A DNA stretch of 28,305 nucleotides from Planctomycetaceae bacterium. GTDB taxonomy: Bacteria > Planctomycetota > Planctomycetia > Pirellulales > Thermoguttaceae. Every line of letters begins with the position of its first letter. Position 1 is the stretch's first letter. The notes below the pieces were generated by a model. It saw nothing but the letters and a program-made list of their open reading frames with translations. It was not told the origin of the DNA and ran no database searches. Both the position numbers and the translations under genes were made by a program. This document shows, in pieces, positions 18,475-20,520 of this stretch. The stretch spans positions 1-28,305 of the forward strand of contig JAISNF010000396.1 in the NCBI GenBank assembly GCA_031276415.1, given 5' to 3'.

Positions 18475-20520
18475 TTATTCACAAACCGGTAAACACGGCG
18501 GAACACACGGTTTGGGTTTGTAAATTTGTACGGGAACTTTGTAAGTTACCAATCGCGGAACAGATCGTGTTACAGTATAAGGAACTTTGCTCGCTTCAAT
18601 TCGACAACCCGTTACGGTTTTTTCACAAGTTACCGGTTTCAAAACAGTATAATTACATTGACGAACACGTTGTTCAGGAACAAGTTTACAAACCCGATAC
18701 GAAATATTTTTGGTGTGCGTTTCCACCACGTTACGGCAAACCTGATAATTCACCGCCTTGATTCGTTGTTCGGGAACCATCCGGCAGACCGTATAATTGC
18801 AACTTTTTTGTACCGGAACCTGTTTACAAACCTGATACGTACAAGTTTTAACACGTTGTTCGGGAACCATTTTACAAACCTTATAATTGCAAACACGAGT
18901 TTCTGGAACAAGTTTACAAACCTGATACGTACAAGTTTTAACCCGTTGTTCGGGAACCATCCGGCAAACCGTATAATTGCAACTCTTTTGTACCGGAACC
19001 TGTTTACAAACCTGATAATTCACGGTTTTAACCCGCTGTTCAGGAACCATTTTACAAACCTTATAATTACAAACACGAGTTTCTGGAACAAGTTTACAAA
19101 CCTGATACGTACAAGTTTTAACCCGTTGTTCGGGAACCATCCGGCAAACCGTATAATTGCAACTTTTTTGTACCGAAACCTGTTTACAAACCTGATAATT
19201 CACGCTTTTAACCCGTTGTTCGGGAACCATTTTGCAAACCTTGTAATTGCAAACACGGATTTCAGGAACAAGTTTACAAACTTGATAGTTCACGCTTTTA
19301 ACTCGTTGTTCGGGAACATACCGAACACAATTAACGGTTTTTTCCCGCAATTCCGGCACCCAAACTTTTTTGTAACAAGTTATCGGCGGACATTGAACTT
19401 TAACCGGTTTATACTTCAACGGCGCACACGCTGCCGGCGTGCAAGCATCCGTACAGGCTCCGGGAGCACAGGGGTCACAAACCGGAACCATTTTAACGAC
19501 AACCGGACCAGGAACCTGATAACTCTGTTTTTCCCAATGACCGGAGCGATATTGAACTTGTTTGGTGTAATGAACCGGCTTACAAACAGTGTAAGAAATT
19601 TCTTTTGTTTTCGTTTCATAAACCGGACGATTCACCGTGTATTCGCGTTGACGAGTTTCCCAAACCGGTTTGCAAACAGTGTACGCAACCTCTTTGGTAC
19701 GGGTTTCATAAACGGGTTTGTATTCCGTCCATGTTCGGGTTTTTTGTTCGTAAACCGGTTTACAAACTGTGTAAGGAATTTCTTTTGTTCGTGTTTCATA
19801 AATCGGACGATTCACCGTGTATTCGCGTTGGCGAGTTTCCCAAATCGGTTTGCAAACAGTGTACGCAATTTCTTTGCTACGGGTTTCGTAAACAGGTTTG
19901 TATTCCGTCCAAGTTCGTGTTTTCTGTTCATAAACCGGTTTGCAAACAGTATAAGGAATTTGCTTTTGACGGGTTTCGTAAATCGGACGGTTCACAATAT
20001 ATTCACGTTGACGCGTTTCCCAAACCGGACGACAAATTGTGTACGGAATTTGTTTCTGGCGTGTTTCGTAAACAGGTTTGTATTCTGTCCATGTTCGGGT
20101 TTTCTGTTCGTAAACCGGTTTGTGAACAGTATAAGGAACCTGTTTTGTTCGTGTTTCATAAACCGGCTTGCAAACATTATACGAAACGGTTTTAACTTTT
20201 GTATCCCAAACCGGTTTGCAAACAGTGTAACGAATTTCCCGCGTGCGAACTTCGGGAACATATTTACAATAAGTTACTGTTCGGGCAACAGGAATTTTGT
20301 TATAAACAGTTTTATAACAAGTGATTTGCTGTTTTTCATAGACGACTTTTTTACAAGTCCGCATCACAGTAACGCAATGATCAACATAATCACAGCAGCG
20401 CGGAATACAGGGATAACAAGTTCCCGCTCCGCAATATCCGGCATTGGCAGATGGAATTTCCGAAAAAATTACAGAAAATGCCGCAATAACGAACAAAATT
20501 CCCAAAAATTTATTACGCAT
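18475..20520 (-). CDS. Secreted Cys/Val/Lys/Tyr-rich YTV-repeat protein (planctomycete envelope protein type)
   Basis: AGGAG (20532-20528) lies 7 nt before ATG 20520. The signal peptide ends SANA|GYC, followed by many YTVCKPVYET-type repeats. YTV repeats were described in Rhodopirellula baltica envelope proteins. There are two arrays of 3x180 bp (19594-20133 and 18751-19290). Confidence 0.85.
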   Translation of the reverse strand: MRNKFLGILFVIAAFSVIFSEIPSANAGYCGAGTCYPCIPRCCDYVDHCVTVMRTCKKVVYEKQQITCYKTVYNKIPVARTVTYCKYVPEVRTREIRYTVCKPVWDTKVKTVSYNVCKPVYETRTKQVPYTVHKPVYEQKTRTWTEYKPVYETRQKQIPYTICRPVWETRQREYIVNRPIYETRQKQIPYTVCKPVYEQKTRTWTEYKPVYETRSKEIAYTVCKPIWETRQREYTVNRPIYETRTKEIPYTVCKPVYEQKTRTWTEYKPVYETRTKEVAYTVCKPVWETRQREYTVNRPVYETKTKEISYTVCKPVHYTKQVQYRSGHWEKQSYQVPGPVVVKMVPVCDPCAPGACTDACTPAACAPLKYKPVKVQCPPITCYKKVWVPELREKTVNCVRYVPEQRVKSVNYQVCKLVPEIRVCNYKVCKMVPEQRVKSVNYQVCKQVSVQKSCNYTVCRMVPEQRVKTCTYQVCKLVPETRVCNYKVCKMVPEQRVKTVNYQVCKQVPVQKSCNYTVCRMVPEQRVKTCTYQVCKLVPETRVCNYKVCKMVPEQRVKTCTYQVCKQVPVQKSCNYTVCRMVPEQRIKAVNYQVCRNVVETHTKNISYRVCKLVPEQRVRQCNYTVLKPVTCEKTVTGCRIEASKVPYTVTRSVPRLVTYKVPVQIYKPKPCVPPCLPVCE

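What the first reader, a model, noticed from the sequence alone, without database searches (positions are those of the whole stretch)
18475..20520. YTV protein is mirror-symmetric: 3x60-aa array, Cys/Pro hinge, 3x60-aa array
Seen (ORF-track numbering): aa 135-314 are three 60-aa units (nt 19594-20133) and aa 416-595 are three different 60-aa units (nt 18751-19290). Both are built in the same 14+16+14+16 register. The midpoint, aa 365, falls in CDPCAPGACTDACTPAACAP, and the flanks are of similar length (~102 and 91 aa). Inference: the chain folds back at the hinge into one very long antiparallel two-stranded beta-ribbon, on the order of 90 nm if extended at ~3.3 A per residue, cross-linked by disulfides. 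The two distant DNA arrays would then have to expand in matched copy number, an unusual evolutionary constraint for a possible envelope fibre or spacer.
Basis: partly seen in the sequence, partly recalled or inferred. Interest (0 to 1): 0.75.

Follow-up and report, generated by a model that had tools for sequence, protein, structure and literature searches.

The report
Giant beta-hairpin YTV wall protein
This gene encodes a member of the known cysteine-rich YTV cell-wall protein family of planctomycete bacteria, and four independent lines of evidence indicate that its two repeat arrays zip together into a single two-stranded beta-hairpin of about 298 residue pairs (up to about 100 nm), so the two arrays must gain and lose repeats in step.

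Summary
ORF 18475-20535 (-), 686 aa, is a secreted YTV-repeat protein (PF07639, E 2.7e-110). It has three 60-aa units at aa 135-314 and three at aa 416-595, both in a 14+16+14+16 register, around a Cys/Pro stretch at aa 353-372.

The fold-back reading is supported:
- **Arm lengths:** in 99 of 113 homologues the two arms differ by the same constant, across 11 length classes. That implies at least 17 coordinated changes on a tree. The sister protein lacks 60 aa in both arms.
- **Parity:** every arm proline sits at one residue parity (0/656 and 0/924 at the other parity).
- **Covariation:** there is a single antiparallel ridge at exactly i+j=726.
- **AlphaFold2:** it predicts near-continuous strands whose paired boundaries sum to 726. 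A relative gives a perfect hairpin with pLDDT 85-94 over most of the arms (dips near 50 at residues 106-110 and 279-287).

Corrections:
- The halves are direct homologues (40% identity), not mirror sequences.
- Cys-Cys pairs directly across the ribbon are depleted. Arm-to-arm disulfides are therefore not supported, and cysteines cluster at the two rod ends.
- The contour length is about 100 nm at most.

The searched literature does not describe this architecture. This scan has reached the same reading at least eight times on other genomes.

The parts
18475..20535 (-). Whole ORF of the YTV protein (686 aa plus stop). The likely true start is the ATG at 20520 (681 aa).
   Evidence: ORF list and translation. 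Pfam PF07639 YTV scores 360.6 bits against a cut-off of 21, in 16 stretches. GAGGAG at 20528-20533 lies 7 nt before the ATG at 20520.
20440..20535 (-). Signal peptide, aa 1-32, with cleavage expected after A-N-A before G-Y-C-G.
   Evidence: Read from the sequence. The hydrophobic N-terminus and the A-x-A / aromatic-C-G motif align across homologues. No signal-peptide predictor was run.
20377..20439 (-). N-terminal Cys cluster of the mature protein (aa 33-53), at the open end of the rod.
   Evidence: There are 7 Cys in aa 33-70. This stretch lies outside the strands of the model.
19483..20376 (-). N strand of the hairpin (aa 54-351).
   Evidence: AF2 DSSP strands are E54-91, 93-180, 185-229, 266-341 and 345-351. 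All 21 Pro are at even positions. The MI ridge and the pair-score maximum both fall at i+j=726.
19594..20133 (-). N-arm array of three 60-aa (180-nt) units, aa 135-314, each 14+16+14+16.
   Evidence: The TRF extent, aa 122-321, mirrors onto aa 405-604 under i+j=726.
19414..19482 (-). Cys/Pro turn of the hairpin (aa 352-374), the closed end of the rod.
   Evidence: This is the unpaired loop between E345-351 and E375-381 in the model. There are 6 Cys in aa 342-384. Only two Cys-Cys pairs fall directly opposite at i+j=726, and both are here: 356/370 and 361/365.
18520..19413 (-). C strand of the hairpin (aa 375-672).
   Evidence: AF2 DSSP strands are E375-381, 385-460, 467-511, 516-601, 603-612, 624-633 and 635-672. 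All 18 Pro are at even positions. This half is collinearly homologous to the N half.
18751..19290 (-). C-arm array of three 60-aa (180-nt) units, aa 416-595, each 14+16+14+16.
   Evidence: The TRF extent, aa 407-591, lies inside the mirror image of the N array (405-604). Within the arrays alone the best register is still 726.
18478..18519 (-). C-terminal Cys/Pro tail (aa 673-686), at the open end of the rod next to the N-terminal Cys cluster.
   Evidence: Sequence. There are 3 Cys in aa 656-686.

Best explanation
The gene encodes a secreted, cysteine-rich YTV-family cell-envelope protein. After signal-peptide cleavage the chain folds back at a Cys/Pro turn (aa 352-374). Residues 54-351 then pair antiparallel with residues 375-672 in the register i+j=726. 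The result is one two-stranded beta-ribbon of about 298 residue pairs, with a contour length of up to about 100 nm.

Every repeat unit has an even length (14 or 16 aa), so the two-residue alternation of a beta-strand is never broken. One face carries Val, Lys/Arg, Glu and Tyr. The other carries Thr, Pro, Cys, Tyr/Trp, Gln and Asn. Each Pro sits opposite a Met or an aromatic residue.

Because each residue of one arm needs a partner in the other, the two 180-nt arrays, about 300 nt apart on the DNA, can only be kept if they change copy number by the same amount. The three units pair U1-V3, U2-V2 and U3-V1.

Cysteine clusters lie at both rod ends: the turn, and the N- and C-termini together. They would let rods be disulfide-linked into the SDS-resistant wall layer in which YTV proteins have been found.

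Shown here: the repeat anatomy, family membership, length matching, parity, and the covariation register. Inferred: the physical rod, its length, the end-to-end cross-linking and the wall role.
For: 1. **Family.** PF07639 at E 2.7e-110. Reviews place YTV proteins in wall preparations of Rhodopirellula, Gemmata and Tuwongella, and report one YTV domain protein among the genes found essential in Planctopirus limnophila.

2. **Length matching.** Independent head, centre and tail HMM anchors were used with an outermost-anchor rule. C arm minus N arm equals 12 aa in 99 of 113 homologues, in 11 classes from 2/14 to 214/226. Measured between homologous anchor points, the two halves of P0001 are both 271 aa. 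Sister protein P0002 is 154/166, which is 60 aa less in both arms. A same-family complete genome has 278/~290. There are at least 17 matched-to-matched changes on a tree built from non-repeat parts. When classes are shuffled, 11 of 24 matched classes is never reached in 100,000 trials (mean 1.4, maximum 8).

3. **Parity.** Pro counts are 0/656 in the N arm and 0/924 in the C arm at the 'wrong' parity, across 99 proteins. All 39 arm Pro of P0001 are at even positions.

4. **Covariation.** APC-corrected mutual information shows one ridge on the antiparallel diagonal, with shoulders at +/-2. Near the hinge it is 0.125 against a background of 0.005 +/- 0.021. At the distal end it is 0.114 against 0.002 +/- 0.019. 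Both correspond to i+j=726 in P0001. Parallel-type diagonals reach at most 0.024. Pair 101/625 shows E-R/R-E swaps.

5. **Pair scoring.** Pair log-odds were trained on 97 other proteins. P0001's best register is 726 (137.6; the next best is 45.2). Inside the 3x60 arrays alone, 726 is also best (96.8 against 57-60 at shifts of 30/60).

6. **AF2.** The P0001 strand boundaries sum to 726 at both ends, with pLDDT 75-87 there. In P0044 all strand boundaries sum to 395, which equals cs+ce+4. Its pLDDT is 85-94 over most of the arms.

7. **Array positions.** The two arrays occupy the same stretch of the ribbon: the N array mirrors to aa 405-604 and the C array is aa 407-591.
Against: - The middle of the P0001 model has low confidence (pLDDT 35-55) and shows a 30-residue slip there (boundaries sum to 696). 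Only one homologue covers that region.
- No solved structure has a hairpin anywhere near this long. The best PDB matches are non-significant stems of pore-forming toxins and a phage phi29 tail component. A free two-stranded ribbon 100 nm long may need lateral partners to be stable.
- 14 of 113 homologues are unmatched (for example 140/30, 62/104 and 76/118). Some of these are anchor slips. Others may be real, or may be assembly errors in metagenomic repeats.
- The window is a contig of an 85%-complete MAG. The repeat count could not be checked against reads, because no run was listed.
- Covariation and length matching cannot tell an intramolecular hairpin from N-arm/C-arm pairing between two chains.
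Confidence: 0.78

Rival explanations
1. The antiparallel N-arm/C-arm pairing is real but occurs between chains. The N arm of one molecule would zip with the C arm of another, giving a domain-swapped dimer or an open-ended polymer that builds the wall lattice directly. No monomeric hairpin would form.
For: Length matching, parity and the covariation register are equally satisfied by intermolecular pairing. YTV proteins are recovered from insoluble, SDS-resistant wall fractions. The two halves are homologous, which fits descent from a protein that paired with itself.
Against: The turn region is short and conserved in length, while the arms vary from 2 to 278 aa. This fits a chain reversal. AF2 closes the hairpin at the turn with high confidence in the relative (pLDDT about 90). 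An intramolecular partner is always nearest during folding.
Confidence: 0.12
2. The protein folds locally, repeat by repeat. Each 30-aa unit would form a small hairpin stacked into a solenoid or meander. The equal arm lengths would reflect some other constraint, such as two equal rods spanning one distance.
For: Most tandem-repeat proteins fold locally. The mid-arm part of the P0001 model has low confidence.
Against: - Local folding predicts covariation near the sequence diagonal within an arm. It does not predict a single long-range antiparallel ridge between arms at the exact register.
- DSSP shows near-continuous strands, with no turns at the 14/16-aa repeat period, in both models.
- Matching to the exact residue and strictly even unit lengths have no reason under local folding.
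Confidence: 0.05
3. The 3+3 copy number in this window is an assembly artefact of a short-read MAG, and the true gene has different or unequal copy numbers.
For: The window is a whole contig of a 663-contig, 85%-complete MAG. Metagenomic assemblers can collapse or expand tandem repeats. Several unmatched homologues have near-identical units.
Against: The units differ by 8-23% at the nucleotide level, which is enough for unique assembly. The resulting arm lengths obey the family rule exactly (214/226). The best pairing register inside the arrays is the in-phase one. Cultured-isolate and single-contig genomes obey the same rule.
Confidence: 0.05

Closest known systems
YTV-domain cysteine-rich cell-wall proteins of Planctomycetia (Pfam PF07639; reported from wall preparations of Rhodopirellula baltica, Gemmata obscuriglobus and Tuwongella immobilis, as cited in PMC12673574 and PMC8567305)
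   Same: It has the same repeat family (360.6 bits, 16 stretches), a signal peptide, 7.9% Cys, and a distribution restricted to the class. The head-arm-centre-arm-tail layout is shared by more than 110 homologues.
   Different: Nothing separates it from the family. It is one of the longest members (arms 214/226; only 278/~290 is longer in this sample), and its arms carry young 3x60-aa arrays. The hairpin architecture itself is not described in the papers found. PMC8078820 lists YTV only as a repeat family without a known structure.
Antigen I/II adhesins of streptococci (SpaP/SspB), recalled from memory and not tested here: the alanine-rich and proline-rich repeat regions fold back on each other to form a long stalk
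   Same: Two distant repeat arrays in one chain pair with each other after a fold-back, so their repeat numbers are coupled. The result is an elongated surface fibre.
   Different: That stalk is an alpha-helix wound with a polyproline-II helix, made of two unrelated repeat types. Here two homologous arms form a beta-ladder. There is no sequence relation.
SMC/Rad50-type fold-back coiled-coil arms (from general knowledge)
   Same: The layout is head-arm-hinge-arm-tail, with N- and C-terminal arms that pair antiparallel and whose lengths are conserved together.
   Different: Those arms are alpha-helical coiled coils with ATPase heads inside the cell. This protein is a secreted beta-ribbon with no enzymatic domain.
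Long beta-hairpin stems of pore-forming toxins and a phage phi29 tail component (anthrax protective antigen pore, aerolysin, lysenin)
   Same: These are the only PDB shapes that Foldseek ranked at all against the model (E 1.4e-3 to 0.1, TM below 0.1). They are the longest solved two-stranded hairpins.
   Different: None of the matches is significant. Those hairpins are tens of residues per strand and are stabilised in multi-chain barrels. This one is about 298 pairs and is predicted as a single ribbon.

Membership tests
YTV repeat proteins (Pfam PF07639) | Multiple YTV repeats scoring above the Pfam gathering threshold | tested here: met
   360.6 bits against a cut-off of 21, E 2.7e-110, 16 stretches. 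Sixteen six-frame matches in the window's genome: fourteen in this ORF, two on the C316 paralogue.
YTV repeat proteins (Pfam PF07639) | Secreted: an N-terminal signal peptide | tested here: met
   Judged by inspection only. There is a basic N-terminus, a hydrophobic stretch, and A-N-A followed by G-Y-C-G. The motif aligns with homologues. No predictor was available.
YTV repeat proteins (Pfam PF07639) | Cysteine-rich composition | tested here: met
   54 Cys in 686 aa (7.9%), concentrated in the C arm, the turn and both termini.
YTV repeat proteins (Pfam PF07639) | Restriction to the class Planctomycetia | tested here: met
   The centre domain was found in 21 of 401 genomes sampled across the phylum. 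All hits are in the window's own class: families f1 1/1, f2 2/2 and f3 17/20, without counting the window's own genome. This used a single-sequence query, so distant members may have been missed.
YTV repeat proteins (Pfam PF07639) | Physical presence in the cell-wall fraction | not testable with these tools
   This is known only for other species, from proteomics cited.
Two-arm (hairpin-type) YTV subfamily, as defined by the homologues analysed here | Head, N arm, conserved centre, C arm and tail in that order | tested here: met
   Alignments A1 and A2. HMM anchors place the head ending at aa 100, the centre at aa 315-407 and the tail from aa 634.
Two-arm (hairpin-type) YTV subfamily, as defined by the homologues analysed here | The two arms have exactly matched length (C minus N = 12 by these anchors) | tested here: met
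   P0001 is 214/226. The rule holds in 99 of 113 homologues.
Two-arm (hairpin-type) YTV subfamily, as defined by the homologues analysed here | Unbroken two-residue parity along both arms | tested here: met
   All 39 arm Pro are at even positions. Family-wide counts are 0/656 and 0/924.
Two-arm (hairpin-type) YTV subfamily, as defined by the homologues analysed here | Antiparallel cross-arm pairing in the register cs+ce+4 | tested here: met
   MI ridges, a pair-score maximum at 726, and AF2 strand boundaries. These are computational tests only.

The most novel reading that the evidence does not exclude
YTV wall proteins are free-standing, monomeric two-stranded beta-ribbons up to about 100 nm long, by far the longest beta-hairpins known. 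Their Cys-rich ends are disulfide-linked into a protein net that acts as the load-bearing or spacing layer of the planctomycete envelope. Rod length would then be tuned by paired repeat gains in the two arms. The family would have arisen by fusion of a gene whose product formed an antiparallel homodimeric ribbon.
Probability: 0.35. Interest if true: 0.85.

Novelty: new member of a known kind. Interest (0 to 1): 0.68.

Why it matters
YTV proteins are named components of planctomycete wall preparations, and one YTV domain protein is reported among the essential genes of Planctopirus limnophila. Even so, no structure or building principle for them appears in the papers searched.

A hairpin of about 300 residue pairs would be an unprecedented protein shape. 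It would give a concrete, measurable model for the long-debated proteinaceous wall layer: rod length is predictable from sequence, and cross-linking knots sit at both ends.

The family is also a clean natural case of two distant tandem arrays forced to change copy number in step. This sample shows at least 17 coordinated changes. In this window a 60-aa unit differs in both arms from the sister protein. That makes the window useful for studying how compensatory repeat expansion happens.

Tried and rejected
- **Arm-to-arm disulfide ladder.** Rejected. At i+j=726 no arm Cys of P0001 faces a Cys. Family-wide, offset 0 has the fewest Cys-Cys pairs. Registers 722 and 738 would align Cys, but neither covariation nor pair scores support them.
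- **Mirror-image sequence symmetry.** Rejected in favour of a direct duplication of the half.
- **Duplication history as a test of pairing.** At the 60-aa level, U2/U3 and V1/V2 are the youngest pairs, which agrees with mirror pairing. At the 30-aa level the pattern is not consistent, so I give it no weight.
- **Unit-length order (14/16).** It cannot distinguish mirror from direct pairing, because the pattern is periodic (my reasoning).
- **First anchor rule.** The first rule (best-scoring head or tail hit) misplaced anchors inside repeats in several proteins. It was replaced by an outermost-hit rule fixed before counting. Iterated HMMs beyond round 1 drifted into repeats and were not used.
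- **NCBIfam.** No family.
- **PDB Foldseek.** Nothing significant.
- **AFDB clusters.** Only unnamed homologues and other extended models.
- **Synteny.** The neighbours of sister P0002 are unrelated to those in this window, so there is no conserved partner gene.
- **Sequencing runs for read-level checks or expression.** None was listed.
- **Complex prediction.** Not used, because no protein-protein binding claim is made.

Full report
**What is there.** The window is a complete 28.3-kb contig of an 85%-complete planctomycete MAG, with ordinary chromosomal neighbours. On the same strand these are an RluD-type pseudouridine synthase downstream and a Ser/Thr kinase upstream. Elsewhere the contig carries xylulokinase, MutL and a 2022-aa TPR protein.

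ORF 18475-20535 (-) encodes 686 aa. An SD-like GAGGAG lies 7 nt before the second ATG at 20520, which is probably the real start. The protein matches Pfam YTV (PF07639) at E 2.7e-110 in 16 stretches and matches no NCBIfam model.

**Checking the observation.** Tandem Repeats Finder gives 180-nt periods at 19573-20166 (3.3 copies, 85%) and at 18764-19317 (3.1 copies, 92%).
- In protein terms, aa 135-314 and aa 416-595 are each three 60-aa units built as 14+16+14+16.
- The Cys/Pro stretch is at aa 353-372.

**The halves are direct homologues.** BLASTP aligns aa 71-341 collinearly with aa 385-655: 40% identity, E 3e-36, and only four gap positions.
- Each half starts with an I-T-C-Y-K motif and ends with a Y-x-V motif. 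Both halves are 271 aa.
- The sequence symmetry is therefore translational. Only the layout around the centre looks like a mirror.

**Arm lengths across the family.** Two searches gave 319 related proteins, and a genome search added loci from cultured and complete genomes.
- All full-length members share one plan: signal peptide, Cys-rich start, head, N arm (units like Y-T-V-C-K-P-V-W-E-T-R), conserved centre, C arm (units like Y-K-V-C-K-M-V-P-E-Q-R), tail.
- I located head, centre and tail with separate HMMs and measured the arms between them.
- With the first HMMs, 29 of 35 proteins had C minus N equal to exactly 12 aa.
- With broader HMMs and a fixed outermost-anchor rule, 99 of 113 did, in 11 length classes from 2/14 to 214/226.
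- The window's protein is 214/226. Its sister P0002 (support 100) is 154/166, exactly 60 aa shorter in both arms.
- A complete genome of the same family has N = 278. After reading through a +1 frameshift, its C arm is about 290.
- On a tree built only from non-repeat parts there are at least 17 changes from one matched class to another. All 14 unmatched proteins are tips.
- Several unmatched cases sit inside uniformly matched clades and are evidently anchor slips.
- Shuffling C-arm lengths among the 24 distinct classes never reached the observed 11 matches in 100,000 trials (mean 1.4, maximum 8).

**Parity.** In the arms of the 99 matched proteins, proline occurs only at one residue parity: 0 against 656 in the N arm and 0 against 924 in the C arm.
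- Val, Arg, Lys and Glu dominate one parity. Thr, Pro, Cys, Met and Trp dominate the other.
- In P0001 all 39 arm prolines are at even positions.
- All unit lengths (14, 16) and all class differences are even.
- An unbroken two-residue alternation over up to 270 residues is what a continuous beta-strand requires. A repeat-by-repeat fold has no need for it.

**Covariation.** I aligned the arms by their anchors and computed APC-corrected mutual information between N-arm and C-arm columns (Neff about 65).
- Near the centre there is one ridge, on the antiparallel diagonal. Its mean is 0.125 with shoulders at +/-2, against a background of 0.005 +/- 0.021. Parallel-type diagonals reach only 0.023.
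- Anchored at the head and tail instead, a ridge of 0.114 appears against 0.002 +/- 0.019.
- Both translate to i+j=726 in P0001. Pair 101/625 shows E-R and R-E swaps.
- A pair log-odds table trained on 97 other proteins scores P0001 best at 726 (137.6; next best 45.2). It is also best inside the 3x60 arrays alone (96.8 against 57-60 at shifts of 30 or 60).
- The three units therefore pair U1-V3, U2-V2 and U3-V1.
- The TRF extent of the N array (aa 122-321) mirrors onto aa 405-604, and the C array is aa 407-591. Both expansions occupy the same stretch of the ribbon.

**Structure prediction.** AF2 on P0001 (28-sequence alignment) gives mean pLDDT 59.8 and near-continuous strands.
- The strand boundaries sum to 726 at the hinge (341+385, 345+381, 266+460) and at the open end (54+672, 91+635). 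pLDDT there is 75-87.
- The shallowly aligned middle has low confidence and slips by one 30-aa unit.
- AF2 on the 82/94-class relative P0044 (81 sequences) gives mean pLDDT 73.6, with 85-94 over most of the arms. Every strand boundary sums to 395, which is the same register rule.
- Foldseek finds no significant PDB match. The ranked entries are the long hairpin stems of pore-forming toxins and a phage phi29 tail component.
- AFDB clusters return only unnamed homologues and other extended models.

**What the cysteines do.** At i+j=726 no arm Cys of P0001 faces a Cys. The only opposite Cys pairs are in the turn.
- Family-wide, directly opposite Cys-Cys is the rarest of the 17 offsets tested (9 of 12,835).
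- Enriched pairs are Pro-Met (14.7x), Trp-Cys (9.5x), Pro-Tyr and Tyr-Pro (4-5x), and Val with Arg/Lys/Glu.
- Arm-to-arm disulfides are therefore not supported.
- Cys clusters sit at the two rod ends: aa 33-70 together with aa 656-686, and the turn. This suggests links between rods. That is inference.

**Function.** Papers place YTV proteins in wall preparations of three planctomycetes and report a YTV domain protein among the genes found essential in Planctopirus limnophila.
- None of the papers found describes a hairpin.
- The most likely role is a rod-like structural element of the envelope, but neither localisation nor length has been measured.
- The genome also holds a Cys-poor paralogue of the 82/94 class on contig C316.
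- Synteny with the sister gene is not conserved.

**Prior notes of this scan.** After my own analysis had reached this reading, a look-up showed at least eight follow-up reports on other genomes with the same conclusion. I list them as agreeing. They are not independent evidence.

**Limits.**
- All structural evidence is computational.
- Intra-chain and inter-chain pairing cannot be separated by these tests.
- The repeat count rests on a MAG assembly that could not be checked against reads.

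Noticed in passing
L014 (G330:C1:4367961-4371281), about nt 2640-2700 of the locus: The orthologue in a complete genome of the same family has even longer arms (N = 278, built from roughly 76-aa super-units repeated three times in each arm). It carries a +1 frameshift just before the tail. Read through, the C arm is about 290 aa, so it obeys the matching rule. 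This is either a sequencing error or a recent disruption.
   Followed up: partly
G000:C316:99-3224 (L009), minus strand, 472-codon open frame: The same genome holds a second, Cys-poor YTV paralogue with the same head-arm-centre-arm-tail plan and matched arms of 82/94 aa. The organism therefore makes two hairpin proteins of different predicted length and chemistry.
   Followed up: partly
window 18526-20553 (+): A 675-codon open frame runs antisense to the YTV gene. It is a low-complexity mirror of the repeats (rich in N, R and F). It is most likely a shadow ORF created by the repeat's codon pattern, not a gene.
   Followed up: no
P0003, P0005 and P0008 (metagenomic homologues): The clearest unmatched relatives have near-identical tandem units. 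Two carry one extra 30-aa unit in the C arm, and one has arms of 140/30. They may be transient unbalanced expansions awaiting compensation, or collapsed and expanded repeats from assembly.
   Followed up: partly
window 9708-15776 (-): A 2022-aa ORF made largely of TPR repeats (21 TPR/ARM-type Pfam models). Many relatives of the YTV protein carry a C-terminal TPR extension, and the sister gene sits next to a 984-aa TPR protein. No link was tested.
   Followed up: no
window 726-3866 (+): A 1046-aa protein combines a 3-keto-disaccharide hydrolase-like domain with a hydrazine-synthase-alpha middle domain, upstream of a 1120-aa ORF with no Pfam match and a xylulokinase gene.
   Followed up: no
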